This document shows, in pieces, positions 7,141-63,917 of a DNA stretch of 64,000 bases (position 1 is the stretch's first letter; the number at the start of each line of letters is the position of its first letter). Made by a program: the position numbers and the translations under genes. Under the pieces are notes generated by a model. That model was not told the origin of the DNA, did not search any database, and saw only the letters and a program-made list of their open reading frames with translations. This DNA comes from an uncultured virus (IMG/VR IMGVR_UViG_3300011855_000001) (lineage: Duplodnaviria > Heunggongvirae > Uroviricota > Caudoviricetes): positions 1 through 64,000 of the IMG/VR virus record IMGVR_UViG_3300011855_000001, one strand, 5' to 3'.

Positions 7141-8028
7141 ATGAAAACTATCGGATATTCAGAGCACCCGTTAGGCTTCGTTGATATTGATAACGACGCC
7201 TATCACGCAGGGCCGGGGGTCAGTAAATCACACCTTGACCTGATTCGTCGTAAGTCACCGAAACATTACTGGCACCGTTACCTTAACCCAGAGCGCGAGC
7301 CTGAGGAGAAGACCGTACCCATGATCGTTGGGCAGGCGACGCACTTTGCGATCCTCCAGCCTGAGCTCTTTGAGTTGCGCGTGGTAAAAGGGCTGGAACA
7401 TGCCCGCCGTTCAAACGCAGAGAAGCAGGCATGGTCTGAGTTTGAGGCCGCTAATAAAGGCAATTACATCGTAAGCGCCGATATGTACGACCGGATCCGC
7501 TACATCCGCGACGCCGTTTGGTCAGAGCCTGAGTGCGCTGGCTTGCTGGCGGGGATCATCCCTGAGCAGTCCGTATATGGATTGATGGATATCCCGACGC
7601 TGGAAGGTGACGAGCTCGTTACCGATGAAAATGGTGTGGTGATGCAGGGGCTGGTTAAGTGCCAGTTTGACGGCATCGCGCCGGACTTCTCTTATGCGCT
7701 CGACCTGAAAAGCACGGAAGATGCCAGCGAGGAGGGCTTTGCCCGTTCCATGGCTAACTACCGTTATGACGTGCAGGATGCCTGGTATGAAATGGTCAGC
7801 GAATCGGCCTTTAACCGTCACCCTGAGGAATTCATTTTCCTGTGTTATGAGAAAGAGCCGCCTTACGTGTCCGGGATCTACTGGTGTACTAAGACTGACC
7901 GTATGCTGGCATCACAGGCCGCACGCCGCGACTTTGCGAAAATTGAGCATCATCGCCGCCTTGGGGTATGGCCTCAGTACAGCGCCACACCTCGCACTAT
8001 CAGCCTGCCCGGCTGGTATCGTCGTTAA
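7141..8028 (+). CDS. RecE/exonuclease VIII-like PD-(D/E)XK nuclease
   Basis: YHAGPGVSKSHLD, GQATH, KCQFD, DLKST, YRYDVQDAWY. Confidence 0.85.
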   Translation: MKTIGYSEHPLGFVDIDNDAYHAGPGVSKSHLDLIRRKSPKHYWHRYLNPEREPEEKTVPMIVGQATHFAILQPELFELRVVKGLEHARRSNAEKQAWSEFEAANKGNYIVSADMYDRIRYIRDAVWSEPECAGLLAGIIPEQSVYGLMDIPTLEGDELVTDENGVVMQGLVKCQFDGIAPDFSYALDLKSTEDASEEGFARSMANYRYDVQDAWYEMVSESAFNRHPEEFIFLCYEKEPPYVSGIYWCTKTDRMLASQAARRDFAKIEHHRRLGVWPQYSATPRTISLPGWYRR

Positions 8029-9381: not shown

Positions 9382-9429
9382 TCATTTTTGCTTAAAGGCG
9401 GGGCGCAAGCCCCCTAACGGAGTCATATA

Positions 9430-10728
9430 ATGAGTAACCAACCTGTAAACCATACGCCGATTGTGCGCCAGCAGGATTCCGGCAATTTCAATATGACATC
9501 TGGCCCCGGTCTCCCGGCTGACCAGATGAATAGCAGCGTCGTTTCCATTGAGCAGCAGCGTGCCATCGCAGAAGCTCAGGGCCAGCTGGTACTGGCGAAG
9601 CGCTTCCCGCGTAACTTCGCTCAGGCCATGGAGGAGATCCTGACCTCCTGCGCCTATATGGAGTTTGCGGAGGAAGCCTTTTACGCCCTTCCGCGTGGCG
9701 GTCAGACCGTGCGCGGCCCATCCATCCGTCTGGCTGAGGAGATTGCCCGCTGTTACGGTAACTTCCAGTACGGGCACCGTGAGCTCGCGCGTAATGAGGG
9801 CGAGAGCGTGGTTGAGGTGTACGCGTGGGACGTTGAGAAGAATAACCGCAGCACCCGCCAGATCACGATCCCTCATATCATGGACACGCGAAGCGGTGGC
9901 AAGAAGCTGACTGGTCAGAAAGAGATCACCGACTACATTGCCAACGTGGCATCCAAGCAGATGCGTTCCCGTATTCTGGCCCTGCTGCCTAAGCCGCTGG
10001 TCGCCGCCGCCGTCAGACGTTGCGAGGAGACTCTGGCAGGCACTGGTGAGCAGAATGTACAGCAGCGTCTGGACAAGATGCAGGCGATGTTTATCAAGTA
10101 CGGCGTGACCGTCAAGATGCTGGAAAGCTATCTCAAGCACCCGCTGTCTGAGACCACCACCGACGAGATCACCGACCTGATCGCGGTGTACACCGCTATT
10201 AAAGACGGTGGCAACGCCAAAGACTTCTTTACCGTGTCCAGCGATCCGGTCGATGACGAGAGCAGCAAAAACGTCAAAGACATTATCGCCAAAAACAACG
10301 CCGCAGCCGCTGGCGCTGGTACTGGCAATAAGCCGAACGTCAATACCCAGCCGACCGGGCAGCGACTGGTTAAGCCTGAGCCACAGCCTCAGGATAACGC
10401 ACAAGCTGGCAATGACGCGCAGGCAGCAGCTCAGGAGACTAAGACTGCTACCAAAAGCGATAAGAAGAATGCAAGCGCTGGCACTGGCAAGAAAACAGCT
10501 GCAAACGCCAAAACCGAAGCCGAAGCAGCCCAGCATCCTGAGGATAAAACTGGGGTAGATACTGCTGGCGCTACCGTTGATGGTCAGAGCGCTGGCGCTA
10601 ATACGCCGCTGCCGGATTCTCACCCTGAGGAACCGCTGCCGCCGCAGGAAGAAGACGCGCCAAACGTTGACCTGACGCCGCCGCCGATGGATATCCCACC
10701 GCCAGAAAGCGAAGACGATTATTTCTAA
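9430..10728 (+). CDS. putative recombination / ssDNA-annealing protein
   Basis: AKRFPR...GPSIRLAE core; lies downstream of the exonuclease; acidic disordered tail. Function is inferred from context. Confidence 0.55.
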   Translation: MSNQPVNHTPIVRQQDSGNFNMTSGPGLPADQMNSSVVSIEQQRAIAEAQGQLVLAKRFPRNFAQAMEEILTSCAYMEFAEEAFYALPRGGQTVRGPSIRLAEEIARCYGNFQYGHRELARNEGESVVEVYAWDVEKNNRSTRQITIPHIMDTRSGGKKLTGQKEITDYIANVASKQMRSRILALLPKPLVAAAVRRCEETLAGTGEQNVQQRLDKMQAMFIKYGVTVKMLESYLKHPLSETTTDEITDLIAVYTAIKDGGNAKDFFTVSSDPVDDESSKNVKDIIAKNNAAAAGAGTGNKPNVNTQPTGQRLVKPEPQPQDNAQAGNDAQAAAQETKTATKSDKKNASAGTGKKTAANAKTEAEAAQHPEDKTGVDTAGATVDGQSAGANTPLPDSHPEEPLPPQEEDAPNVDLTPPPMDIPPPESEDDYF

Positions 10729-10764
10729 CAATCGGGCCTCCGGGCCCTTAACTGGAGCATTACC

Positions 10765-11040
10765 ATGCTGACTAAAGCACAAATCGTGGAACACATCGCC
10801 AAAGAGCAGAATATCACCAAGTCACAGGCTGAGCGCTTTTACAGCTGCTTCACCCAGCTGGTGACTGATACCCTGAAAGCTGGCGAAGAAGTAAAACTGA
10901 ATGGCGTCGGCACGCTGAAAGTGGCTGCGCGTGCAGCTCGTACAGTGCGCAATCCGGCTACAGGTGCCCCTCTGGATATCCCGGAAACCCGTACCGTGAA
11001 GTTTTCTGTAACCAAAGACCTGAAAGACGCGCTGAATTAA
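10765..11040 (+). CDS. HU/IHF-family DNA-binding protein
   Basis: TKAQIVEHIA, GVGTL, ARTVRNPATG. Confidence 0.92.
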   Translation: MLTKAQIVEHIAKEQNITKSQAERFYSCFTQLVTDTLKAGEEVKLNGVGTLKVAARAARTVRNPATGAPLDIPETRTVKFSVTKDLKDALN

Positions 11041-43552: not shown

Positions 43553-45307
43553 TTACAGGTCGGGCAGACCAAACGATTTGTAGAGCCCTTCCTCGTCGAG
43601 GTTCTGCAACGTGTTATGCAGCTCATCGAATTTTTTCTTATTGTCGGCTTGCAGCTGCTCCTGCTCGGCCTGCTGCTGTGCAGCTGCGTCGGCGTCGTCA
43701 GGGTTGGCAGGATCAGCGCCCGGCTCCTCGCCCGGCTGCTGTAGCTCGGCCTGCTGCGCCATCTGCTCGGCTTGAATATCAGCGTTGACCTTAGCCATAT
43801 AAGGCTGCATCGAAACGCTGTTAAGCGGGGAGTTGGCCCAGTCTTCTTTGATTTCTTCCCAGTTGCGAGCGCGGCGTGCTTCGTTGACGGTAAGGAGCGT
43901 TTTCTCCTCGTCCCACGCCTGCTTCGGATCCTTCTCATCCAGACCTGTCCAGCGGAACACGTACTTATCTGAGAAGTCGGAAATGATGTAATCGGTGAAT
44001 AAGTCCTCAAAGTGCGACAGCAGCGGTCGCAGGCCCTTATCCTTCGAGTTGATCAGCTTCTCCTCCGTGTCACTGCCGGACAGCGAACTGGTACCAGCAG
44101 TGAAGGATTCGAAGTTGATCTCGTCCGGGGCGATGCCATAAATAGCGCAGATGATCGCGGTTAAGAACGTCATCCATTTGGCAAACATGATCTCGTTAAC
44201 GTCTACGCCAAAGTTTTCAAATTTCGCCGTGGATTCCGAAGTTTTGGAAACCATGACGGGCAATGTCCATGCGTTATTGATGCCCTTCACCATGCTATTC
44301 CAGTACCGCTTAAAGGAGTTGAGATCCTCGGTAGAATAGTCGCCGGAGAGATGGAGCAGACCTTTCGGGATGGCGTTCGAGTCGAAATACTTCTGGTTGT
44401 ACGTCATGGCGTTCAGGAAGCCCGTGACGGTGTTTACCAGCAGCTCAGTTTCGCTCATCCCGTAACCGCCGTTCAGCACATCGGTGCGGGTGTTGCGCGG
44501 AACATAGATCAGGTCGTTGTAGGTGTAAGCGGTGCGGATGTTACCCTGCACCACCTGTAATGCGAAAATCTCATCATCGCCCTTGTACCCGTCCTCGGTG
44601 CAGAGGCGGATCGTGGCACCATCGACGGCATAAAGCCCGTCCATGCCCAGCGAGCGGTTTTTCTTGAATTCGGTCTCAATCGGCGCGGAGTCCATCACCA
44701 GCGAGTCGCGCACCAGCTTGCTCATGAAGCCTGAGAAGTTATCGCGCTTGAGGCGAGCACGCACGCGGGGGTTACTCTCCCAGCCGCAGTTTTGCATGAA
44801 CATTTGCAGCGCGTTGATGGAGTCCTGCTCGGCTTTCGCCAGCCGCTGTGAGCCGTTCTGCTCTTTCAGGCGAATCTGGAAGCCGGGGCCCACGCCTTTC
44901 TCACTGGCGCGGCAGAAGCGTTTGATCTGGCGGATGCGGGTCATCACCACCGCCGACAGGATTGGCGTCTTGTCCACCATGTAGCGCATGGCATCAAAGC
45001 CAAAGTTTGTCGGACGCTCGTACCAGTCGCCCAGAATCTGCACCTGACGGTCATCCAGCCAGACGGACTGCATACCTTCTTTCTTGCCCTCGCGGACAGC
45101 CTGAGAAGGGTAATCGACCAGCGTATTTTTCTGGAGGGACTTGTAAAATTCCTGATCAGCATATGACTGGGCAATATGCTGAATCAGCGGGGCCAGATCC
45201 GGCACGCTGGAAGGCATTGCAGCTTTCTGCGCTTGCGCCATCGCATCCTGCTGTTCGTCGGCAGGCGCGGCAGGGTTGTGCGCGGTTTGGATGGCGTTGT
45301 CAGACAT
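43553..45307 (-). CDS. portal protein
   Basis: AVDGATIR, GYGMSETE, YFDSNAIPKGLL, LTVNEAR; AAAGG RBS before ATG 45307. Confidence 0.9.
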   Translation of the reverse strand: MSDNAIQTAHNPAAPADEQQDAMAQAQKAAMPSSVPDLAPLIQHIAQSYADQEFYKSLQKNTLVDYPSQAVREGKKEGMQSVWLDDRQVQILGDWYERPTNFGFDAMRYMVDKTPILSAVVMTRIRQIKRFCRASEKGVGPGFQIRLKEQNGSQRLAKAEQDSINALQMFMQNCGWESNPRVRARLKRDNFSGFMSKLVRDSLVMDSAPIETEFKKNRSLGMDGLYAVDGATIRLCTEDGYKGDDEIFALQVVQGNIRTAYTYNDLIYVPRNTRTDVLNGGYGMSETELLVNTVTGFLNAMTYNQKYFDSNAIPKGLLHLSGDYSTEDLNSFKRYWNSMVKGINNAWTLPVMVSKTSESTAKFENFGVDVNEIMFAKWMTFLTAIICAIYGIAPDEINFESFTAGTSSLSGSDTEEKLINSKDKGLRPLLSHFEDLFTDYIISDFSDKYVFRWTGLDEKDPKQAWDEEKTLLTVNEARRARNWEEIKEDWANSPLNSVSMQPYMAKVNADIQAEQMAQQAELQQPGEEPGADPANPDDADAAAQQQAEQEQLQADNKKKFDELHNTLQNLDEEGLYKSFGLPDL

Positions 45308-45336
45308 ACGGTTAACCTTTGCAAAGTAGTCCGCAG

Positions 45337-45360
45337 AGAGTGACATCACGACATCACGAC
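45337..45360 (-). promoter_or_regulatory. late promoter with a tandemly duplicated motif (portal)
   Basis: GTCGTGAT-GTCGTGATG-T-CACTCT. Confidence 0.75.
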
Positions 45361-45362
45361 GC

Positions 45363-45411
45363 AAAATAATTTAAATACCCTCTTGCTATCATCTTTTTTG
45401 CGTGATTTAAT
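45363..45411 (+). promoter_or_regulatory. sigma70-like promoter of the RNA island
   Basis: AT-rich UP-like tract, TTGCTA-17nt-TTTAAT with TG extension. Confidence 0.5.
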
Positions 45412-45420
45412 CCATCCCGT

Positions 45421-45781
45421 AGCACTGATTGGGATGTTTTCCGATATTGAAATTTAACTTAGAAAGTTAATGTCAGTTATGGGACGGAAAGCATCAACCA
45501 ATGAGCGCTTGGCTTTGACTACTCAATACGGATTTGTCGTTATTTCACGTATACGGTTGTCAAGTGCTCAGCCAAATCCGATAAACCGGGTAGATCGATT
45601 CAGACGGCTAAGTGGAGCCTGACGATGAAAGCGCCGGATGAGGATGCCGAATGGCAAGGTACTGGCCTGACTTTCCCCCTTTCAAAGTAAAGGGGCTCGA
45701 TATATCAATCTGCTGGTTGCAGCCTTTTTACCGAATCGCTTTCGTGTATACCTCTCGAAACGCAGCCAGCAGATTGATATA
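45421..45781 (+). ncRNA. series of long hairpins upstream of the tRNA
   Basis: Stems at 45421-45509 and 45510-45574, and a 20-bp stem 45701-45720/45762-45781. Confidence 0.5.
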
Positions 45782-45788
45782 CCGATTT

Positions 45789-45864
45789 GATTCTGTAGCT
45801 ACAGCGGTAGAGCGGCGCACTGTTAATGCGCGGGTCGCTGGTTCGAATCCAGCCAGAATCGCCA
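45789..45864 (+). tRNA. tRNA-Asn (GTT)
   Basis: Acceptor GATTCTG/CAGAATC, discriminator G, CCA; anticodon arm GCGCA-CTGTTAA-TGCGC; T-loop TTCGAAT. Confidence 0.95.
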
Positions 45865-46057
45865 GAGTAATCATGGGTTGGTTACAAGCCTGTCAGAAGG
45901 CAATCCCGCCCCGGCTTCTCCTCAGGTCGCCGGGGCACCTTCCCAGAATTAAGGGCAGTCCCTTACTTCTGCGTCGGTAAGAGCGGAGAATCAGGAAATT
46001 TCGACCGTAGTACCAAAACATTGCTTCCTTGCCGCCCCCGTGGGCGGCTTTTTTTTT
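45865..46057 (+). ncRNA. putative antisense regulatory RNA in the tRNA trailer
   Basis: Hairpins whose loop regions are complementary to translation-start regions; ends at a terminator. Confidence 0.5.
46031..46057 (+). terminator. strong intrinsic terminator
   Basis: GCCGCCC-CCGT-GGGCGGC-T9. Confidence 0.85.
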
Positions 46058-46074
46058 AGCCTGAGGAGTAACCC

Positions 46075-46602
46075 ATGAATATCTTTCGCCGCATCCTGAA
46101 TAAAATCTTTGGCATCCCACCAGTGCCACCAGAGCCGAAGATCGAGCCGCCAAAGTTCGGCGGTGATTTCCCGCGCCCTGTCTCCGTAACGATGAAGGCT
46201 ACCCAGACCGTCAAGCAGGATCCGATGGCTGCGGCGGTCGCCCGCGCAAAAAGGGACGCGGAAAAAACTGCCGTAAAAGGCAAAGTCAGTAGCGCGAGCA
46301 GCAGCTCCACCACAAGCCCGGTATATGATCCACTAATGGATCCACTTAACCCATTAAGCCCGTTATATGTTGGCGTAACAGTTGAGGAACCGCGCCACCG
46401 CGTACAGCATCAGGACGCGACGACGATCAGCGATACCACCCACCGACACGTCGCCAGCCATTCTGAGCCATTGCGCAGCCAAAGCTCACACAGCAGCAGC
46501 CATTCGAGCCATGACTATGGCAGTAGCCACTCAAGCCACAGCAGCCACGACAGCGGCAGCTATGACCACGGCAGCAGCCACCATAGCGGCAGCGACTGGT
46601 AA
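46075..46602 (+). CDS. hypothetical protein with a His/Ser-rich tail
   Basis: GAGGAG RBS; DPLNPLSPLY motif; SSHSSHD repeats. Confidence 0.75.
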   Translation: MNIFRRILNKIFGIPPVPPEPKIEPPKFGGDFPRPVSVTMKATQTVKQDPMAAAVARAKRDAEKTAVKGKVSSASSSSTTSPVYDPLMDPLNPLSPLYVGVTVEEPRHRVQHQDATTISDTTHRHVASHSEPLRSQSSHSSSHSSHDYGSSHSSHSSHDSGSYDHGSSHHSGSDW

Positions 46603-49218
46603 TTAGCCGTCACCTTTCGAAATAAAGCCGGAGCAGCCAATATCCTCCGGCTTCACCAGCATCATGATCTCATGACAGGATCCGGTCTCCGGGTCGTAGT
46701 TAATACAGCGACCGCAGACATCCCCGCGATACTTCACGCTGTTCACCTCATCCATGTAACTCACCAGCGTCTGATCGACGCCGATATCCAGCGGGCTCAG
46801 TCGCTCGATCTTCACCTGCGGGGCATCCGGCAGAATAAACGTGCTGGTACCGTGCGCACGACTCCATGCCACATCGCACAGCAGGTTTGCGTATGAGAAG
46901 TGGGGATCGATGCCGATTTTCTTGACGCTGCGCTTGTACTGGTTCGTTTCCTCGTCTTTCTCAGCCACCAGCGCCGTTTTGGTGAAGTGGGTGAACATGA
47001 CCGGGGCAACGGCTTCCATACGCGTGACGCCCTTCTCACGAATCTCCTGCACCAGTCCCTGAGGGTCAGGGATGAGGCAGATCGGCTCGTCGGCAGTGAA
47101 GCGGGCCATGGAGACCTGCATACACTTATACTGGTCGATGCGGACGGTGTAGCGATCCTGCTCCTCCTCGTCGGTGCGCACATCAGACTTGTCCAGCTTC
47201 ATGCTGTCATTCCACTGGATCATGCCATCCGCTACAGTACCGAAGCTATTACAGATGAATACCCGGCCTTTGTGACGGTTGGCGAAGCGCTTGGCGTCGT
47301 TGTAGTTCGGGTTGATTTCCACCACGCAGCAAGCCACGCCGTACTGGTTCATCAGCTCGCTACAGCGGGCAAACGGGTCATCGCTGTAAATCATTTCGAT
47401 GTGGCAAATTGCTTGGTGACCGGATGGCAGTCTTTCTTTGATAACCACCACGTTAAACTGGCCCATCTGGTCAATGCCCATGTAGCAGTTGTCCGCGCGA
47501 GACTTCCACTGCACGCCAAAACGCTGACCATGCTTAACGCAATTAGCCAGGTGCTCCAGCGTTACCGGAACCAGCGACGGATCGAGGAACGGCTTGCCCA
47601 GCTTACGGTTATAAAAGTTTTTCATATCCGTAGCGTTGTTGAATGCGGAAATAATCTCGCCGGGGCTGATTGTCGGTGACAGGAACTGCGGGAAGTGCGC
47701 CGACCGGATGCAGGTTTCCCCCTCCTCATTCTCCGGCGCGTCCGGGATCCATTCACCGCGCTGCGTGTCCTCGATCCAGCCTCCGCAGCTGTAGCAGACA
47801 TAACGATGGCGTCGGGTGTCCGGGTCGTACTTGATGCACTGCGGGAAATAATCATCCAGCGGTTTCTTTTCGAGGCAGTGCGGGCACTCGGTATGGAAAC
47901 GGTACTGGGATCCCAGCTTGTACCAGTGGTGGATATCGGAGTCGGGCCAGTTGGCGGTGGAGCCCATCAGGCTGTAACGGATCGGGGATGCTGACAGACG
48001 TTCGCGGGTTTTCTCCATCTGCTCCAGCGACATTTCCTGCACCTCGTCGAAGCTCAGGACATCCATCGGGATGGATTCTGTAGTCGCGCGGCCCGATGTC
48101 CAGCTGAATACAAACATCGCCTCACCGATGCGACGGGTACGCACGTTACCTTCACCCTTCTTGCGCCCGCCCCCTTTCTCATCGTCCTGCACCATCAGCG
48201 CGTGTACCTCAGGTACGGTGCGCACAATCGGCATGAAGCGCTCAGAGGACTTGATCCCCGCCAGCGCGGCATCCGGCAAGAACATGCCGATAGTCATCGG
48301 CTGGAAGCGCAGGCCAAGGTAAATCACGGCGAGCATTTCCATGACGGTAAAGCCCACCTGCGCACACTTCATCAGCACCAGCGTTTTACGGTACGCCTCC
48401 TCGACGGTACTGGGGATCTGGTCGTAAATCCACGCCATCGCCGGGCGGTTGTCCAGCTTGAACGGGCGACCATCCACTTTAAGGCCCGTTTCGCCCAGCC
48501 GGATGCACCACTCCAGAAAGGTCTCATTTGGCTTGAGGATTTTCTGCGAGGCGGTCAGGACAAAGGTCGTATCGAGGAATTCAGCATCATAGCGCTGGCG
48601 CTTCTCATCCCCGGTCGTGCTGTCCATTTTCTCCAGGAATGCCGCGTCGAGGTTATGGCGGTTGGTCTCGGTCGGCACGCGGCGGCGGAACCAGTCGGCG
48701 TCCAGCTCGGCCTCCATCCACAGCCGATAAAAGTCGTGATTCTTCCCGTAGGCCCCGGAGAGGAACCATGCGCTGCCGTGGTACTCGCGCAGGCACTCAG
48801 CCAGCGTATCGCCCCACAGCTGCATGAAGTTATAAATCTCGCGCACATCGTCGATGATCATCAGGCCATACTGCCCGTTGACCTCTTTCATGCTATCAGC
48901 CGCATAAAGGTCAATGTACTGGCCCGACAGCAGCGTGATGCGCCTGCTGGTTGAGCTCTTGATAAGCGGATCGATGGCCTGCACGATCCGGGTGCGCACC
49001 TCCATAAGGTCTTTGTACGTGGCGCTCATCCACATCGCCGGGGCAGGGTTATTCATGATGCCCTGTTTCCCAGCCACCAGCGCCTCTATGCCAAGCGTTG
49101 TTTTTCCTGCCTTCTCGCCCATGGCAATAACGTTAAAACGCGCCGCACGGTCGATACAGACCTGCAACGCGTCATTGAGAATGGGCAGCTTAATTTTGAC
49201 GGTCTTTTGGCGTGCCAT
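46603..49218 (-). CDS. terminase large subunit (GpA-like) with an extra N-terminal degenerate ATPase domain
   Basis: KCAQVGFT, FDEV, GST, MGIDQ, DPHF; N-terminal GEKAGKT and IIDD. Confidence 0.85.
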   Translation of the reverse strand: MARQKTVKIKLPILNDALQVCIDRAARFNVIAMGEKAGKTTLGIEALVAGKQGIMNNPAPAMWMSATYKDLMEVRTRIVQAIDPLIKSSTSRRITLLSGQYIDLYAADSMKEVNGQYGLMIIDDVREIYNFMQLWGDTLAECLREYHGSAWFLSGAYGKNHDFYRLWMEAELDADWFRRRVPTETNRHNLDAAFLEKMDSTTGDEKRQRYDAEFLDTTFVLTASQKILKPNETFLEWCIRLGETGLKVDGRPFKLDNRPAMAWIYDQIPSTVEEAYRKTLVLMKCAQVGFTVMEMLAVIYLGLRFQPMTIGMFLPDAALAGIKSSERFMPIVRTVPEVHALMVQDDEKGGGRKKGEGNVRTRRIGEAMFVFSWTSGRATTESIPMDVLSFDEVQEMSLEQMEKTRERLSASPIRYSLMGSTANWPDSDIHHWYKLGSQYRFHTECPHCLEKKPLDDYFPQCIKYDPDTRRHRYVCYSCGGWIEDTQRGEWIPDAPENEEGETCIRSAHFPQFLSPTISPGEIISAFNNATDMKNFYNRKLGKPFLDPSLVPVTLEHLANCVKHGQRFGVQWKSRADNCYMGIDQMGQFNVVVIKERLPSGHQAICHIEMIYSDDPFARCSELMNQYGVACCVVEINPNYNDAKRFANRHKGRVFICNSFGTVADGMIQWNDSMKLDKSDVRTDEEEQDRYTVRIDQYKCMQVSMARFTADEPICLIPDPQGLVQEIREKGVTRMEAVAPVMFTHFTKTALVAEKDEETNQYKRSVKKIGIDPHFSYANLLCDVAWSRAHGTSTFILPDAPQVKIERLSPLDIGVDQTLVSYMDEVNSVKYRGDVCGRCINYDPETGSCHEIMMLVKPEDIGCSGFISKGDG

Positions 49219-52955: not shown

Positions 52956-52992
52956 GGCGTATTCCTCAGGGTTGGATTGGTTAACTGCTGAG

Positions 52993-53021
52993 ATAATACG
53001 TCATGCGTGCCGTATGGTCAA
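52993..53021 (-). promoter_or_regulatory. early sigma70 promoter with palindromic operator
   Basis: TTGACC-17nt-TATTAT; ATACGTCA-TGCG-TGCCGTAT. Confidence 0.8.
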
Positions 53022-54365: not shown

Positions 54366-57300
54366 TTATACGCTCGGCAGGATGATACATTCCACAACGG
54401 TCATGCCGCTGCCGCCAAAGCCATCGGCGTCCTTAGTCCCCGATTCGTTCACCTTAGTGATGAGTAGGCGGGTATTAGGTGGCAGGATAATTTCTTTTTC
54501 CCCGGTATGGTGCGAGATAGATCCACCACTCGGAAGCGAGCCAGCGCCCGCATAGATACCTTTTACGCCGGGGCCTGCTGTCATTTTGAGGTGAATATTA
54601 CCACTCCACACGTCTGGACTGATAGACGTGGACATAATTGCAGGCTCCATGATGACCTTGCCGACCGACGCTTTCAGCTTGGAGAGATCACCGCTGCCCA
54701 GACTGAATTTGCGCCCGAACGTGGTACCCGGCGAAATTTCATGGCCCATACCAGACAGCGCCTGCGCTGCTGCTTTCGCTTCTGCGCTTGGGTTGCCCTT
54801 CCACAGTCCGCTGTTCATCTGCTTATAACTGCTACCAGTATACGCCTGCACGGCCTGCTTTTGTGTCATCGGCAGCTTTTCCCACACTTCCTGTGCTGCT
54901 TTGGCATAAGTGTTTGTGGTCAGCGTGCCAGCCTTGAAAGTGGTTTTAGTAATGCCAAGGTCTTCCGGCTCAACAATCCCCGGATGGCCCAGCACCAGCA
55001 GGTTCCCGATCTTGTCTGCATCGTTACCGCTCCAGTTTTCCGGCTTGTATTCTTCGTGCATCGAATACAGCGGGTGATCTCCTCCGATACGGAACTGCTC
55101 GGCTTCATGCCCGGCAAGCTGGCTCTTAATCTCGTTAATCGCCTGCATCGCGTAGCCTTTGATGTGCTGCGATGGGTGATCGAGCACTGGCACCTGTCCG
55201 GTAACAGCTCCGGTGTCTTTGTCAAAGGTTGGCGCGGTCAGGCCGCGAATGGCTTCCGGGTCTCCGGTCAGCGCCGCAGAATAAATGGCCTGCGCCGCGT
55301 CGTGGTTCCCTTTGTTCAGGAACTCTTTGGAGGACGGGCCGGATTTGCCAACGCCAGACCAGTTGAGGAAGTCAGGCGGGGTACTGATTTTCTCCGGCTT
55401 GAATTTCTGCATTTTGATGATCTGCTCGGCTTCCGGGTACTTCTCAGCCAGATACTCTTTGCGCTTGATGAGCGTTTCCACCAGCTCCTTTTTCGCCTTA
55501 TCATCGCCCGGCCCGTACTGGTTGACCATGTGCGCGATTTTGGCGTCGGAGATAGCCAGCACCTTGGAGACAGACGCGGCGATATCGGCCTCAGTCATGC
55601 CACCGAAGACGGCGGCGCTGTTCGCGTTCATCTTCGGATCCATCAGTGACTCCAGCTCCTTAACTACTGGGCCAAATTCTTTCTTCGCACCCTGCGCACG
55701 GAACATCAGCGAGCCGCCCGCATCGACGCGGTGAATGGTGCCGTCATCTTTCAGCTGCACGTTGTCTTTCGCCAGCCCCACGACATCCCAGTTACCCAGC
55801 CACGCATCAACGGCAAATCCTTCCAGCATACCCTTGGCCTTCGCCAGCGCTGCATGGGTTTTGGCCTTCTTGATGTTCTCCCACTTCGAGGCAATAGCCA
55901 TTTTCCCGTCCTTGGTGACGATCATGGCGTCCTGCGCGGACAGGCCAGCGGCGCTATACAGTTTCGCTGCCAGCACCTCAGCCTTGGCGTGCTCCTCGTT
56001 ATCCGGGAACTTCACATACCATTCCTGCCCATCGGCGTCCTTCATTTTCATGCCTTCATTCGAACCGCCTTGGTTGCCCCCGGTCACTGTCCACTCATCG
56101 ACGCTGATCGGCTCTTTCTTCTTCCACTGGTACTTTTTGACCTCCATCGGGCCATCAGCGGCAAGGCCATTCTCTGCCGGGTTGATGGTCGCGGCGGTAG
56201 CATTCATCAGCTGCGCGACGCCATTCATAGCATAGGTGCCATTCACCTCAGGGTTATAACCGGACTTAACCTTGATCCCATTAGCCATCAGCATCATCGA
56301 CGCATATTGCGCCAGCGCCTTTTTACCCGGCGCGGTCGGGCCATACTCCGTTGAGACCTTAATTTTCATCCCAAACTCGCCATAAATCAGCATCGAACCA
56401 TCGGCTTTCTGCATGATGACGCCTTTGGTGCCGCCGCCTTTGGTCAGCTTGGCTTTGAGGTTATCTACATATTTCATGTAGTGATCCTGCTGCCAAGCGC
56501 TCAGGCCAAGCGCAGCGAAGTCAGGTGCTGGGATCTCGTCAGGATTGGCCCTAACCCAGCGCCCGTTTTTCAGGATCAGCATCCCGTTGGCACCCGGCTT
56601 CATGTCGCCTTCTTTTGGGCCATCGTCGGCCTTCTTCGCATCTTCTTCGGCTACGGTGTTCTTGATAGCCGTCAGGATCCCGTCGATAGCCGCAGTGGCA
56701 AAATCGTTGATGGTTAGCACGCTCTTAATGGTGCTGACTGCATCAACCTTGTCCGGGTTGGCGTCGTAGTATTCCTTGCACGCCACCGATGCTTTGACGA
56801 CCTTTTGCAGCCCGCTTTTGGTCTCCGCGATGCTCTTGATGTCGTCCAGCAGTTTCAGGTCAATCATTCCCAGATCCGGCGCGGCAGTTTCCGGTGCTGG
56901 CGCAGGCTCCTCAGATCCGGTGATCTGATCCTGCACAAAGGTCATGGTGCTGATCGCGTAGTCCGTCATGCTCATTTTGACCAGATCGGTTCCCTGATTC
57001 GCCATCAGCGCATACGCGGATTCTTTGACGCTGTTCAGCACAGCCTCTTTCATTTCCTTCGAGTCGGTGTACTTCGCCAGCATCGCCATCGCTGCCAGAC
57101 CATCCAGCGCATCGGCATCCGCCATGCTATCGCCCTTGTAGCTGGCTTTCGGGATCCCCTGCGGGACGCCGTGCATGTTGATGCTATCTTTCAGCGTGGA
57201 CTGGAGGACAGGGATATGGGCCACGTTATCGCCTGCGGCCTTCACGATGTCCTGATAGGTGGCAGGGTTGTCGCCTTTCTTCGCCACGTATTCCTGCACA

Positions 57301-60300
57301 GCCATGAGCGTTTCGAGGTTGTCTTTGGCGTTGTTGAAGACCAGCCCAAGGTCATACATGTTTTTCGGCTTGCCCGGCGCAGCGGTCAGCTTGTCCAGCA
57401 CCTCAGCCATGTACTCCTTGTACTTGGTACCGTTGATCGTGGTGCTCGGCGTCACGTTCTGCTCATATTTCATAGCCTCAATGAGCAGCTTTTTGCTGTT
57501 CTCATCCTTCGCCAGTGTTGCAGCGATGGCGTAGCCCTGAAAATCAGTTGCCTCGGTCGAGTAGAAACCAACGTCCGGCTTAATCGGCAGGTTGAGCGGC
57601 TTGCCATGCTTTTTGAAGTAAGCCTGACCGATTTCAGACGCAGCGTAGACGTGCCCGCTGTTCATTTTCAGGATATTGTCGATAACAGTCGTGTATGCGC
57701 CCTTATCGCCATGGTTGTCCTTGATGAATTCCAGACCGATGCTGGTCGCATCATCGCCGTTCGCGCCAGCGAGGGCCTGTTTGAGCGCCACAATCTCGCT
57801 GCCCGCGCTGCCATTAGCTGAGGTCTCAGGCATATCCTGCTGTAAGATCCAGTGCCCATTATGGAAGACCAGCGTACCGCCTTTACCCTGCTTGGTATCA
57901 CCCTCCTGCGGGCCATCCTCTACCAGCCACTTATTGACCTCCTGCTGGTACAGTTTAACCTGCACAGCAGCTGGCTCGGAAAGGTGAAGCTCGCTCAGCT
58001 CATTAAAGTGCTTGGCGATCACATCAGGATCCGATTCTTTGCCTTTGTGAACTTCTTCGGCAATGACGTTATAGAGGGTCTGCACTTTCGTGCCATAGGT
58101 TTTCACCGTATCGCTGGTTGGTGATACCAGAGGTTTTTCTGGCTCAGTGCCGTAAGTCTCGCTCCACCATTTCCCGTAGGCTTTCTTACCTGCGATAAAG
58201 AATTCATTTGCCAGCTCGTTAAAGCCATTGTCCTTCATGGCCTCAGCCATCGCCACCAGCTGCGGCGCATCGTGACCGTTAGCCGTCATCCAGTCGCCAG
58301 CCATCGCATCGGCTTGCTTTTCGTCCTTGGCATCTGTCAGCATGTCAAACGCACTTTCCCACAGAGCGTAATCGTTCAGGATCGCTTTCTTCTCCTGCTT
58401 ACGCTCATGCTTAGTGGCAGTCTGCTCGGATTTCGCCGCAGCCTGAGACTTCTCGGCCCATGAATCGTACAGCTTCCCGACGCTGGACTCGGAGAAGGCC
58501 AGATCGCTACCGTAATAGGTAGACGCCTGCTCAATGAATGCCTCGCCTTTTGTCTTCGCCCACTCGTTGAACTCAGCCACATCGGCAAAATCCGGCAGCT
58601 GCGGCTCAGGGGTTGGCGCACGCTCCTGCTTGATCTGCGGTGGCGTCGGCAGGGATTTCACGGAGATATCGCCCAGCTCTTTCTTGGCGGCGGTCACGGC
58701 TTCGATGATCCACGCGGACAGATCAACCTTCTGGAAGGCATCAATCAGGTTCTGGTCATCACGGATCACTGTCACCATGTCGTTGATGTTGTCCACAGCC
58801 AGCGCCCAGTTACCCGCGTTGAGGTCATTCTGGATGTCCTCACAGATGCCGTCGATAAACGCATCACCAGTCTGCGGAGGATTGGAGAAAGTCTTCACTC
58901 CCTCAGGCTTAGGCGCAGCAGCAAGGCCCAGAGACTCCGCCAGATTGACCGCAGGCTCTTTGCCAGCCATTACCTGCTGGTAAACCTCATTCTGCGTGTT
59001 GGAGAAGCCGGAGATATGGCCCCAGTCGCCCTTCTCGTTAACCCACATACCAGATCCCGGATTCTTCGGATCCGCGACGATGACTGCGCTGGTATTGGTC
59101 GGGTAAACGCCTGCGTCTGGAGTCGTGGACAGCACGCCATTCCACATGTTCTTGATGACGTTTTGCTGCTTCTGGGTCAGGTGATTCGGCTTGCCCAGCT
59201 CCACCAGCTCGGTCGGGTACTCGCTATGGTGATAGTCGGAAATGTAGCCCAGATTGTCCGGGGTTTTGGTGTTACCACCAAAGCCGATCAGTTTCAGGTA
59301 CTGTCCAGCTTGGAACGGCTTAGCCAGCGGCTCACCCTTCTTGCTCATAGGCCATGCGGTCGCGTGCCCCATCAGCACTTTCAGGTACGGCTTACCGTCC
59401 TTGTCGTAGGTCTGGATGATTGAGCCTGCGGGCAGGTTCGGCATATCGGAGATCGACAGCTTCTGGCCCTTTTTGAACTCACCAGCGACAGGCTGATCCT
59501 TGAGCGGCTCGCCAGTCTCCTGATTGTGCCAGCGACCGTCTTTGAAAACCTGCATCCCGTTTTTGCCCATGCGGGTATCACCTTCCTGCGGGCCTTCCTC
59601 AGCCCGGACGGTTTTCTGCTGCTCAACCTCTGCGCTGGCCTTCTGATCCTTTTCTGCCTGGCTAAACTGGCCCAGCATTGGATGCACGGCGTCTTTGCCG
59701 ATAACCACTTTGATATCCGGGTAGCCCAGCGCTGCCAGCGCGTTATTCGCAGCCTTGGCTACTTTGAGCCCGTAGGTGTTTTTTCCGTATGTCATCGCCA
59801 GAATGCCGTTGATGTTGCCTACTTCGCCAGCGGCCTTGATAGCGGCGATCTGCGCGTTGTAGCTCTTGGCATTCTTAATGTTCTCCGCGACGGCGAACTG
59901 GCTCCAGTCGATAGCGTCCATGGCCTTCTTCGACACGGATGCTTTCGGGGCTGGCTTGCCTTCGGCGGTGTCCGGCTGCGCCGGGGAGGTAGCGATGATT
60001 TCAACCGCGCTCAATGGGCTCGGCTCCTCGGACTGCACCAGCGGCTTATTCGGATTCTCACCCGTCAGCAGCGCCAGCTTTTGCCCGTAGAGGTTCAGCA
60101 GCTTTTTGCTGTTCGGGGTGATGCCCTTCCAGCTTTTCGCCTTGCTCTTGATAGCTTCCAGCTCCGCCAGACTGGTGGCGTCGATAACCTTCTGAGCCTG
60201 CGCCTCATACGCGGTGCGCACGCCAGTGGAGTTTTTGCCGGATTCAAATTTAGGCATGACGATTTCGCCTGGCTTCGGTGCTTCGGCAGCAGGTGTTGAG

Positions 60301-61809: not shown

Positions 61810-62142
61810 TTAAATTTTGATTAAATGGGCTTTGTGAATACGCACGGTGCCGTAGCTGTAGCGGCCTTTCTTACGGATATTCATCGCGTAATACTGCCGG
61901 AAGTCGATCCCCGGCTCATTCCAGTTAAGAGTCACGAAAATGCCGTGGACATGCAGGACATCCAGCGGGCGATCATTGCCACGGATAAACACGCGGTCGC
62001 CGGGCTTGAGCTCCTGCTTGGTGGATTGCATCACCTCCAGTGCAAGATCAGCGTCTACCTCAGTCGCATGGTAGCCAGCCTGCCACGTATACCAGCCATT
62101 CGCGCCAGCTGCGCGGATATGGTTTTTAATTGAGTTGATCAT
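61810..62142 (-). CDS. hypothetical protein
   Basis: TAAGGA RBS before ATG 62142. Confidence 0.7.
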   Translation of the reverse strand: MINSIKNHIRAAGANGWYTWQAGYHATEVDADLALEVMQSTKQELKPGDRVFIRGNDRPLDVLHVHGIFVTLNWNEPGIDFRQYYAMNIRKKGRYSYGTVRIHKAHLIKI

Positions 62143-62180
62143 GGGTTGGTTCCTTAAATGCCGCATCCATGCGGCCTGCG

Positions 62181-62829: not shown

Positions 62830-63048
62830 TTATTTATCTTTCTCGCGGTTGTAGCGCTCATGGGTTAGCAGATCCCATGTATCGCCGTTATCCCGGCTCA
62901 GTAAACGCCAGCGGATGCCGACCTTTAACGAGATACCACCGCTGCGCTTGAGGTGGGTTATTGCTGCCTCTCCGCGCTGCCACATTTCCAGAATCTGCCC
63001 GGCTTTTATCAGCGCCTGAGCGGGAATTCCTTTCATTGCCTTGAACAT
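62830..63048 (-). CDS. ParE/RelE-like toxin-fold protein
   Basis: SLKVG.RWRLLSRD.G..W.L.THE.YN pattern, recalled from ParE-like proteins. Confidence 0.6.
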   Translation of the reverse strand: MFKAMKGIPAQALIKAGQILEMWQRGEAAITHLKRSGGISLKVGIRWRLLSRDNGDTWDLLTHERYNREKDK

Positions 63049-63085
63049 AATATAGCCTCACCTTGGGTTGGTGAGGCTATATTAT
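63047..63085. repeat. perfect 16-bp inverted repeat
   Basis: ATAATATAGCCTCACC-7nt-GGTGAGGCTATATTAT. Confidence 0.9.
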
Positions 63086-63107
63086 TACGTCATGGGTGAC
63101 GTGTCAA
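63079..63107 (-). promoter_or_regulatory. early sigma70 promoter with palindromic operator
   Basis: TTGACA-17nt-TAATAT; ACGTCA-TGGG-TGACGT. Confidence 0.8.
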
Positions 63108-63841: not shown

Positions 63842-63917
63842 CAGGAATCCTTTTAGGGTTGGTTAAATAACCCGTAACGCACCGCGCTACGGGGCCTTAT
63901 TGCTTGATGCGTGGTTG

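What the first reader, a model, noticed from the sequence alone, without database searches (positions are those of the whole stretch)
45865..46078. tRNA-trailer RNA with two antisense loops matching translation starts: candidate multi-target RNA repressor
Seen: element a (TCATGGGTTGGTTAC, 45871-45885) and loop b (CTCCTCAGG, 45918-45926) are complementary, in collinear order, to CCTGAGGAG-T-AACCCATGA, the SD and start of the next gene (46060-46078). Element a also pairs with early minus-strand leaders: 14 nt over the start at 62138-62151, 10 nt at 63856-63865, 9 nt at 63064-63072 and 7 nt at 52969-52975, where loop b adds an overlapping 8 nt (52963-52970). Three of these leaders follow the operator-bearing promoters. 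Known: P1 C4 and P4 CI are processed two-site antisense RNAs. Inference: a tRNA-released sRNA that silences an early regulon. Caveat: AC-rich leaders are common, so the short matches could be chance.
Basis: partly seen in the sequence, partly recalled or inferred. Interest (0 to 1): 0.85.

Follow-up and report, generated by a model that had tools for sequence, protein, structure and literature searches.

The report
Phage tRNA-trailer antisense small RNA
The 190 bases after a phage tRNA gene encode a conserved, folded small RNA with two exposed stretches that match the ribosome-binding sites of several of the phage's own genes, so it probably switches those genes off.

Summary
Element a and loop b are exact reverse complements of the SD and start codon of the next gene (0 of 200,000 shuffles match this). 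The 14-nt match at 62138-62151 is also real (P about 0.004).

The trailer (45865-46058) belongs to a 95.5-kb myovirus and ends in a strong terminator. It is nearly invariant in three close relatives. A diverged homologue in a second lineage (G001) keeps the same helices, with 6 compensatory pairs. Rfam has no match.

The key result comes from G001. Its element a has a different sequence, yet it too has a 14-nt perfect complement across a start codon of its own genome (P about 0.002). The swapped RNAs do worse, at 11-12 nt.

Loop b (CUCCUCAGG) is conserved. Its complement CCUGAGGA(G) marks the first genes behind operator-bearing promoters in both lineages.

Against this, the target genes are not orthologous. 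Pairing to the downstream gene is lost in G001. There are only two lineages, and the evidence for expression is weak.

Best reading (about 0.55): a multi-target antisense sRNA released by tRNA processing. It is not a member of the C4/CI family.

The parts
45789..45864 (+). tRNA-Asn (GTT) with encoded CCA. Its 3' processing would create the 5' end of the trailer RNA.
   Evidence: ARAGORN; Rfam tRNA 61.5 bits
45865..46058 (+). Trailer sRNA of about 194 nt: five helices (H1, H3, H4, H5 and the terminator) plus the small hairpin H2
   Evidence: Fold z=-3.0. Only one substitution (45917) and one T-run length change among window, phiT5282EW and ECML-606-1. Homologue in L009/G001. CM scores 235 and 157 bits. 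6 compensatory pairs, 0 of 500 shuffles as high.
45867..45885 (+). H1 / element a: stem 45867-72 with 45880-85, loop AUGGGUU. This is the 5'-proximal seed.
   Evidence: G-C to A-U and U-G to C-G changes in L009 keep the stem.
45888..45901 (+). H2, a small hairpin (GCCU/AGGC). In L009 it is GCC-GCAA-GGC.
   Evidence: It is not aligned by MAFFT; this reading comes from the two single folds.
45908..45936 (+). H3: G+C-rich stem with a 13-nt loop UUCUCCUCAGGUC holding loop b (45918-45926), an anti-SD sequence
   Evidence: The loop core CUCCUCAGG is identical in L009 while the stem differs.
45944..45971 (+). H4: outer CAGAA/UUCUG conserved, inner stem covaries with L009
45983..46008 (+). H5 hairpin with a CAGGA-containing loop
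46031..46057 (+). Intrinsic terminator (7 G-C pairs, then T9). It is the 3' end of the sRNA.
   Evidence: conserved in L009
46060..46078 (+). SD (CCTGAGGAG) and start (AACCCATGA) of the next ORF. It is a two-site complement of b and a, and it starts 2 nt after the terminator T-run.
   Evidence: In a read-through RNA, element a pairs with it in cis.
46075..46602 (+). 175-aa ORF, Pro-rich at the N terminus and Ser/His-rich at the C terminus. No Pfam or PHROG family.
   Evidence: 141-aa homologue in L009 in the same position: tblastn gives 33% identity over 164 aligned residues; 47% in the MAFFT alignment.
62138..62151 (-). Best trans target of element a: 14 nt AACCAACCCAUGAU across the ATG (62142) of a 110-aa gene in the operon behind operator promoter 63100
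   Evidence: Accessibility-corrected energy -16.0 kcal/mol, next best TIR -9.0. The same start is annotated in ECML-606-1.
9434..9443 (+). 10-nt complement of a at +5..+14 of a plus-strand gene (ATG 9430, 432 aa, phrog_3657)
   Evidence: -9.0 kcal/mol
63064..63072 (-). ACCAACCCA in the loop and stem of the 5' leader hairpin of the ParE-like gene (ATG 63048), just after operator promoter 63100
63856..63865 (-). 10-nt complement of a in a leader (ATG 63841)
52963..52975 (-). CCTGAGGA (b) overlapping CCAACCC (a) in the leader of the 142-aa 'MWLILSDGF' gene (ATG 52955), behind the half-operator promoter at 53004
   Evidence: The orthologue in G001 has 12 nt to b'.
7300..7325 (+). 12+9-nt two-site complement inside the recE-like exonuclease ORF (codons for PEEKTVPMI). 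It is either a secondary target or chance.
   Evidence: It is not kept in G001, which uses synonymous codons.
63088..63101 (-). Operator-like palindrome CGTCACCCATGACG between TTGACA and TAATAT

Best explanation
The DNA after tRNA-Asn encodes a small RNA of about 190 nt. It is transcribed with the tRNA(s), cut free at the tRNA 3' end (inferred: RNase E-type trailer cleavage), and ended by its own terminator.

The RNA exposes two elements. One is a seed near the 5' end (element a, containing CAU opposite AUG). The other is an anti-Shine-Dalgarno loop (b, CUCCUCAGG).

Alone or together, these pair with the ribosome-binding site and start codon of several phage mRNAs. Most of these are first or early genes of operons driven by sigma-70-like promoters that carry a palindromic operator. 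The gene directly downstream of the RNA is also a target.

Pairing would block initiation and possibly trigger decay. This would add a post-transcriptional layer to the shut-off of that gene set.

Shown: conservation, structure, complementarity, and its specificity to the cognate genome. Inferred: processing, stability, repression and timing.
For: 1. The RNA is real and conserved.
- The trailer differs from phiT5282EW by one substitution and one T-run length change, and from ECML-606-1 by the T-run only. Over 1.3 kb those genomes are 96% and 87% identical.
- A diverged homologue (L009/G001, L055) keeps H1, H3, H4, H5 and the terminator. It shows 6 compensatory pairs (0 of 500 shuffles as high; slid controls give 0).
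- There is one copy per genome.
- In G001 it follows a tRNA-like acceptor/T-arm/CCA element that ARAGORN and Rfam do not call.

2. The own-gene two-site complement of 9+9 nt is reached by 0 of 200,000 shuffles.

3. Element a is specific to its own genome.
- The longest genome-wide complement (self masked) is 14 nt in both genomes, and both cover a start codon. The sites are window 62138-62151 and G001 77700-77713.
- The elements differ in sequence (UCAUGGGUUGGUU against CAUGUUGGGUGGUU).
- Shuffles give P=0.004 and 0.0017. Swapped elements reach 12 and 11 nt.
- TIRs with 8 or more nt to a: 6 of 127 and 4 of 103 cognate, against 1 and 1 swapped.
- Accessibility-corrected energy at or below -5 kcal/mol: 5 of 169 and 5 of 149 TIRs (two of the G001 entries are the same site), against 0 of 141 and 0 of 121 intragenic controls. 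The best values are -16.0 and -16.3, against -8.2 and -6.8 for swapped RNAs.

4. Two-site hits of 17 nt or more number 3 (window genome) and 4 (G001). The swapped maxima are 15 and 16. The null gives P(at least 3 such hits)=0.026 and 0.022.

5. The link to the operator regulon.
- Leaders behind 4 of 5 operator promoters in the window genome carry a or b complements.
- In G001, a variant operator (GCGTCG-N4-CGACGC) precedes leaders with 9-12 nt to b' or 10 nt to a'.
- Two orthologous genes keep the b complement in both lineages: 52955/G001 61975 and 92451/G001 5012.
- CCTGAGGA is present in 3 of 3 leaders of the MW.. gene from sRNA-bearing lineages and in 0 of 29 others.

6. Typical sRNA features are present: a terminator with T9 and a seed near the processed 5' end.

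7. A weak hint of transcription. Metatranscriptome contigs identical to the window cover 45548-46111, while the neighbouring genes show only sparse or variant contigs.
Against: - The best a-targets in the two lineages are non-homologous genes. The window's 110-aa gene has no G001 homologue. G001's 143-aa gene has a window-genome homologue at 72601 that matches only 8 nt of b.
- In G001 the downstream gene's start region pairs poorly with a' and with only 6 nt of b'.
- The exonuclease site is lost through synonymous codons in G001.
- The loop substitution in phiT5282EW is not compensated there.
- Hybrid-only duplex energies show no general TIR enrichment. In G001, 13 of 148 TIRs against 16 of 122 controls lie at or below -16 kcal/mol.
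- For loop b, one intragenic control in G001 scores best of all (-18.4).
- The anti-SD content of b and the CAU of a favour start sites by construction.
- The G001 operators were noticed by looking upstream of predicted targets, which is an ascertainment bias.
- The two lineages are sisters, so shared features may count as a single evolutionary event.
- In the single-sequence MFE of the window RNA, element a is paired long-range rather than free.
- No strand-specific or end-mapping RNA data exist. DNA carry-over in the RNA libraries cannot be excluded.
Confidence: 0.55

Rival explanations
1. The trailer is a structured RNA with a function other than base-pairing to mRNAs. It could be a processing or stability element of the tRNA operon, a protein-binding RNA, or a decoy. 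On this view the start-site matches are by-products of its anti-SD-like and CAUG content.
For: - Strong conservation and covariation of the helices, which antisense function alone would not require.
- Conserved CUUCUGC and GAGCRGAGAA segments with no target assigned.
- No general TIR enrichment in hybrid-only energies.
- Targets are not orthologous.
- T4 likewise carries stable RNAs of unknown function (RNAC, RNAD), described as such in PMC9697503 (passages). That they lie next to the T4 tRNA genes is recalled.
Against: - 14-nt perfect complements across start codons occur in both genomes with different seed sequences (P 0.004 and 0.0017).
- Cognate elements outperform swapped ones.
- The own-gene two-site match is reached by 0 of 200,000 shuffles.
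Confidence: 0.2
2. The sRNA acts mainly on the host. It would pair with host mRNAs or sponge host sRNAs, as the E. coli tRNA trailer 3'ETS-leuZ does. The phage matches would be secondary.
For: It shares tRNA-trailer biogenesis with 3'ETS-leuZ (mechanism recalled, not read here). Published phage sRNAs that act on host functions exist (listing, e.g. bioRxiv 10.1101/2024.10.31.621285, abstract only). Host targets were not examined.
Against: The phage's own genome holds the long perfect complements. Element a tracks the phage's own start sites across lineages, and the operator-regulon leaders carry the complements.
Confidence: 0.12
3. The trailer is a cis-acting leader of the downstream 175-aa ORF. 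The ORF can only be translated from terminator read-through RNA, and in that RNA a and b fold back on the SD and AUG to keep it silent.
For: - The SD starts 2 nt after the terminator T-run in both lineages, leaving no room for a separate promoter.
- The MFE of the read-through RNA pairs element a with the start codon.
- An RNA-library contig runs from 45796 across the terminator to 46111.
Against: The fold-back is absent in G001 although the RNA is conserved there. It does not explain the 14-nt matches to distant genes or the G001 matches. A strong terminator argues for a discrete short RNA.
Confidence: 0.1

Closest known systems
P1/P7 C4 and P4 CI antisense RNAs (Rfam C4 family)
   Same: A phage-encoded RNA cut out of a longer transcript. 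It uses two separate elements to pair with adjacent sites over the ribosome-binding site of a gene downstream in the same transcription unit. It acts alongside an operator-binding repressor (role of C4 in the c4-icd-ant operon: PMC8198154, passages). The two-element detail and RNase P processing are recalled.
   Different: No match to any Rfam model except tRNA at E up to 10. The RNA is about 190 nt rather than about 70-80 nt. It sits behind a tRNA and has its own terminator. It has several candidate targets scattered over the genome. The phage has no integrase or CI-like hit among 102 ORFs scanned, so this is not an immunity system as far as can be seen.
3'ETS-leuZ, the tRNA 3' trailer sRNA of E. 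coli
   Same: A functional base-pairing RNA that is the 3' external spacer of a tRNA transcript (recalled; the term appears in the reviews listed).
   Different: That RNA is short and sponges sRNAs. This one is phage-encoded and long and structured, and its complements are mRNA start sites.
T4 RNAC and RNAD (stable RNAs; their position beside the T4 tRNA genes is recalled)
   Same: Stable phage RNAs with no known function (PMC9697503, passages; the tRNA-gene neighbourhood is recalled, not in the passages read).
   Different: No sequence comparison was made here. No antisense targets are known for the T4 RNAs.
T4 RegB (and RegA), protein shut-off of early mRNAs
   Same: The functional logic is the same: early messages are silenced at their SD or start region once the phage programme advances (RegB: PMC9697503, passage; RegA recalled).
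   Different: Those are proteins. Here the proposed effector is an RNA.
Anti-SD loop sRNAs (e.g. Burkholderia anti-hemB, RF02837)
   Same: A hairpin loop UCUCCUC followed later by a terminator. There is a weak sub-threshold Rfam match (20.3 bits against a gathering score of 49.5, E=0.039).
   Different: The match is far below threshold and needs an 84-nt insertion. This is resemblance of design only.

Membership tests
C4/CI antisense RNA (Rfam C4 family, accession recalled) | Sequence and structure match to the family covariance model | tested here: not met
   cmscan of 45400-46300 at E up to 10 lists tRNA and six weak unrelated matches, none of them C4. The whole window at gathering scores gives tRNA only.
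C4/CI antisense RNA (Rfam C4 family, accession recalled) | Two elements pairing with adjacent sites over the RBS of a downstream gene of the same unit | tested here: inconclusive
   Met in the window lineage (9+9 nt). Not met in G001.
C4/CI antisense RNA (Rfam C4 family, accession recalled) | 5' end made by RNase P from a longer transcript | not testable with these tools
   Only contigs of RNA libraries were available.
tRNA 3'-trailer-derived sRNA (3'ETS type) | Starts directly after the CCA end of a tRNA in the same transcript | tested here: met
   The tRNA-Asn ends at 45864. There is a tRNA-like acceptor/T-arm/CCA element in G001. An RNA-library contig spans 45647-45915 (strand unknown).
tRNA 3'-trailer-derived sRNA (3'ETS type) | Released as a stable species by trailer cleavage | not testable with these tools
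   No end-mapping data.
Terminator-ended trans-acting (Hfq-type) sRNA | Intrinsic terminator with a long U tail at the 3' end | tested here: met
   7 G-C pairs plus T9; conserved in L009.
Terminator-ended trans-acting (Hfq-type) sRNA | Seed complementarity to several mRNAs beyond chance | tested here: met
   Only the top hits stand out; there is no general enrichment.
Terminator-ended trans-acting (Hfq-type) sRNA | Chaperone binding and seed-dependent regulation | not testable with these tools
   Needs experiments.
T4 RNAC/RNAD | Sequence or structure homology | not tested
   No T4 sequence was compared.

The most novel reading that the evidence does not exclude
This is an RNA counterpart of T4 RegA/RegB. 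A myovirus uses the spacer after its tRNA gene as a dual-seed 'anti-initiation-site' RNA: an anti-SD loop plus an anti-AUG 5' seed. Together with an operator-binding repressor, it shuts off a set of sigma-70-driven early operons. The seed and the start-site sequences co-evolve between phage lineages, and the tRNA, or even a decayed tRNA-like stub, is kept as the processing handle.
Probability: 0.4. Interest if true: 0.75.

Novelty: new variant of a known kind. Interest (0 to 1): 0.62.

Why it matters
Few phage small RNAs have known targets, and the stable RNAs of T4 (RNAC and RNAD) are still described as having no known function. That they lie beside the T4 tRNA genes is my recollection, not something read here.

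This locus would be a concrete, testable case in which a tRNA trailer of a phage is a multi-target translational repressor of the phage's own genes. It comes with named seeds, named targets and a natural 'compensatory' pair of lineages.

It also defines an RNA family absent from Rfam. It links that family to a set of operator-controlled promoters whose repressor is unknown.

Tried and rejected
**Searches for more relatives.**
- A pattern scan of viral contigs gave 8 stretches. Two are real (the two known lineages) and 6 are chance matches in coding DNA.
- The metagenome scan gave 1 stretch, identical to the G001 type.
- The genome-contig scan gave 4 stretches, all unrelated.
- The covariance model found only the window and L009 among 43 sources and 413,811 bases.
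- A search with the alignment of the 175-aa protein found only the same two lineages.
- Only 1 of 44 terminase-related loci (L004) has the tRNA-Asn.

**Energy scans.**
- Hybrid-only duplex energies were too noisy in this G+C-rich genome and gave no TIR enrichment.
- The whole-RNA scans with post-hoc accessibility missed the loop interactions and were replaced by the region-restricted scan.

**Compensatory change within the window lineage.**
- ECML-606-1 target sites are nearly identical to the window's, so they are uninformative.
- The phiT5282EW loop substitution at 45917 is not matched at the exonuclease site.

**RNA libraries.** Parts of 44800-47200 without contig cover, and the depths, say nothing about expression level, strand or ends.

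**Host targets.** Not searched, because short seeds cannot be found with the E. coli collection tool.

**Promoter of the tRNA/sRNA unit.** No convincing sigma-70 match (1 weak site against 1.2 expected).

**Earlier notes of this scan.** None exist for this genome or sequence.

**Papers on these phages.** Seven papers hold the name phiT5282 or ECML-606 and 6 were listed. One was opened (Phold preprint, one passage) and none was seen to describe this RNA. Supplements were not available. The searches brought up no report of a phage tRNA-trailer sRNA with mRNA targets, which does not prove that none exists.

Full report
**Context.** The window is the first 64 kb of a 95,548-bp phage genome, G+C 56%. 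PHROG hits show a myovirus. They include terminase (46603-49218, minus), portal (43553-45364, minus), sheath, baseplate and tail fibres, along with primase, helicases and a recE-like exonuclease. No integrase or repressor family appeared among the 102 ORFs scanned. Of 130 phage records that matched a 1.3-kb query, only two cover most of it: Enterobacter phage phiT5282EW (96.4%) and Escherichia phage ECML-606-1 (87.4%). One IMG/VR contig is of the same type (L004).

**The observation.**
- ARAGORN and Rfam place tRNA-Asn(GTT) at 45789-45864, with CCA encoded.
- The trailer that follows runs to a strong intrinsic terminator: 7 G-C pairs at 46031-46048, then nine T.
- Two bases after the T-run comes CCTGAGGAG-T-AACCCATGA, the SD and start of a 175-aa ORF (46075-46602).
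They lie in the order required for antiparallel pairing.
- None of 200,000 shuffles of the trailer reaches this 18-nt two-site match, and 9 reach 16 nt.
- The other claimed matches are all present.
- The 14-mer at 62138-62151 spans the ATG of a 110-aa gene whose start is annotated identically in ECML-606-1. A match that long is found by 0.4% of shuffled elements that keep CATG.
- The 7-10-nt matches are each within chance.

**The trailer is a conserved, folded RNA.**
- Among the window, phiT5282EW and ECML-606-1, the 194 nt differ by one substitution (45917) and the length of the T-run. The DNA upstream of the tRNA is rearranged: the relatives carry about 470 extra bases of tRNA-like sequence, and the window has a long inverted repeat instead.
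- A terminase relative at 80% identity holds a diverged version of the whole module between terminase and portal. This is L009, contig G001 of 86 kb, and the same sequence occurs in metagenome contig L055. The module there is a tRNA-like element, a 213-nt trailer, a terminator, and a 141-aa homologue of the ORF.
- The two trailers share the order of helices. H1 and H4 keep their pairing through compensatory changes. H3 has a different stem in each RNA, and each folds on its own. The loop core CUCCUCAGG is identical.
- On the model-fitted alignment, 6 of 39 pairs change on both sides. No shuffle out of 500 reaches this, and the slid controls give 0. The caveat is that there are only two divergent lineages and the alignment was fitted to the structure.
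- Rfam has nothing for the trailer. The best result is a far sub-threshold resemblance to an anti-SD sRNA.
- Pattern scans of three collections, a covariance-model search and a protein-guided search found no third lineage. There is one copy per genome.
- In G001 the element in front of the trailer has a 7-bp acceptor stem, a canonical T arm and CCA, but is not called as a tRNA. This fits selection for a processing handle.

**Cognate complementarity, the main new evidence.**
- G001's element a' has a different sequence: CAUGUUGGGUGGUU against UCAUGGGUUGGUU.
- Its longest complement in its own genome is again 14 nt and again covers a start codon. The site is AACCACCCAACATG at G001 77700-77713, a 143-aa gene, and it is contiguous with CTGAGGA, which matches b'.
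- An 11-nt match covers a second start at 5395-5405.
- Shuffles give P=0.0017 for 14 nt. The window's element finds only 11 nt in G001, and G001's element finds 12 nt in the window genome.
- Counting called start regions (-45..+6) with 8 nt or more to a gives 6 of 127 and 4 of 103 for cognate elements, against 1 and 1 for swapped ones.
- An accessibility-corrected scan, a rough stand-in for IntaRNA, places 62142 at -16.0 and G001 77702 at -16.3 kcal/mol. No intragenic control lies below -5 for element a (0 of 141 and 0 of 121). Swapped RNAs reach -8.2 and -6.8.
- Two-site hits of 17 nt or more number 3 in the window genome: 7300-7325, the own gene, and 73884-73903. They number 4 in G001. The swapped maxima are 15 and 16. 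With b fixed and a shuffled, P(at least 3 such hits) is 0.026 and 0.022.

**Link to an operator regulon.**
- In the window genome the palindrome ACGTCA-N4-TGACGT sits between -35- and -10-like boxes at 63100, 89875, 73950 and 66285, with a half-site at 53004.
- Four of these five promoters are followed by leaders with a or b complements:
  - ACCAACCCA at 63064 and at 89842, which are paralogous leaders and so count as one event;
  - ACCTGAGGA-act-ACCCATGA at 73884-73903;
  - CCAACCCTGAGGA at 52963-52975.
- The 14-nt target at 62142 is the third gene of the 63100 operon.
- G001 has a variant palindrome, GCGTCG-N4-CGACGC and near variants, before leaders with 9-12 nt to b' or 10 nt to a'. I noticed these by looking upstream of predicted targets, so the count is biased. 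The loose regex also hits many non-promoter sites.
- Two orthologous genes keep the b complement in both lineages although their leaders otherwise differ.
- Among 32 viral loci encoding relatives of the MWLILSDGF gene, CCTGAGGA is in the leader of 3 of 3 from the sRNA-bearing lineages and 0 of 29 others. This is consistent, but it is a single phylogenetic event.

**Results against the reading.**
- The strongest a-targets are non-homologous genes.
- G001's downstream gene pairs poorly with its own RNA.
- The 12+9-nt site inside the exonuclease gene encodes a conserved peptide and is lost through synonymous codons in G001.
- The phiT5282EW loop substitution is not compensated.
- Hybrid-only energies show no general start-site enrichment.
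- For loop b, one intragenic control in G001 scores best.
- All targets are proteins of unknown function, so 'early regulon' rests on promoter type alone.

**Expression.** Four wastewater metatranscriptome runs hold contigs identical to the window over 45548-45677, 45593-45752, 45647-45915 and 45796-46111. The last crosses the terminator into the ORF. The neighbouring portal, ORF and terminase regions show only short or variant contigs. Contigs give no strand, ends or level, and DNA carry-over is possible. This is a weak hint only.

**Mechanism proposed.**
- *Shown:* a conserved structured RNA directly behind a tRNA or tRNA-like element; a terminator; two conserved exposed elements; and cognate complementarity to start sites.
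- *Inferred:* co-transcription with the tRNA; release by trailer cleavage, giving a 5'-monophosphate seed; pairing of a (over AUG) and/or b (over SD); a block of initiation; and timing relative to the operator regulon.
- In the window lineage the ORF behind the terminator can also be silenced in cis on read-through RNA. This is lineage-specific.

**Comparison with known systems.**
- It works like P1 C4 / P4 CI: a processed, two-element antisense RNA beside an operator-repressor circuit (for C4's role). It fails the family's model and differs in size, context and number of targets.
- Its origin resembles the E. coli tRNA trailer sRNA 3'ETS-leuZ (recalled).
- It also recalls T4's RNAC and RNAD, described as RNAs of yet unknown function. 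Their position beside the T4 tRNA genes is my recollection.
- Its proposed role parallels T4 RegB and RegA (recalled).
- I rate it a new variant of a known kind, with a new RNA family.

Noticed in passing
window 45692-45786: Directly upstream of the tRNA-Asn the window has a long inverted repeat: ATATCAATCTGCTGG..., then about 40 nt, then ...CCAGCAGATTGATAT. phiT5282EW, ECML-606-1 and IMG/VR contig L048 carry about 470 bp at that position with two or more tRNA-like 3' halves (T arm plus CCA) that ARAGORN and Rfam do not call. The tRNA cluster is being remodelled while the trailer stays fixed.
   Followed up: partly
window 63088-63101 and 52990-53004; genome 89863-89876, 73938-73951, 66273-66286: A palindromic operator-like motif, ACGTCA-N4-TGACGT, lies inside sigma-70-like promoters. 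G001 has a variant, GCGTCG-N4-CGACGC. The binding protein is unknown.
   Followed up: partly
window 62833-63048 (minus): A 72-aa gene with a ParE-like toxin domain (PF24732, E=1.8e-16) is the first gene behind operator promoter 63100. No obvious antitoxin gene is adjacent. Its leader forms a hairpin (AGCCUCACC...GGUGAGGCU) whose loop carries the complement of the H1 loop.
   Followed up: no
window 54369-61121 (minus): A 2251-aa protein has a C-terminal ADP-ribosyltransferase domain (PF03496, residues 2146-2227) and no PHROG match.
   Followed up: no
window 9430-10728 (plus): The real gene here is on the plus strand (432 aa, phrog_3657, annotated in ECML-606-1). The longer minus-strand ORF at 9382-10794 is spurious.
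   Followed up: yes
window 46075-46602; L009 6635-7060: The ORF after the terminator is Pro-rich at its N terminus and has a Ser/His-rich repetitive C terminus ending in W. It belongs to no known family. In both lineages its SD abuts the terminator T-run, so it depends on read-through.
   Followed up: partly
G001 61976-62010 (minus), = L076 upstream of 301: The leader of the G001 MWLILSDGF orthologue carries its own anti-SD, CGCCUCCUC, which can pair with GAGGAGGCG. That sequence resembles loop b of the sRNA.
   Followed up: no
window 45470-45575: A block of about 105 nt upstream of the tRNA region is conserved in ECML-606-1 while its flanks diverge. It is covered by RNA-library contigs (X19, X20). 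Its function is unknown.
   Followed up: no
genome 66508-72198 (outside the window; L069): Four DNA methyltransferase genes lie in a row, one of them fused to a ParB-like nuclease domain.
   Followed up: no
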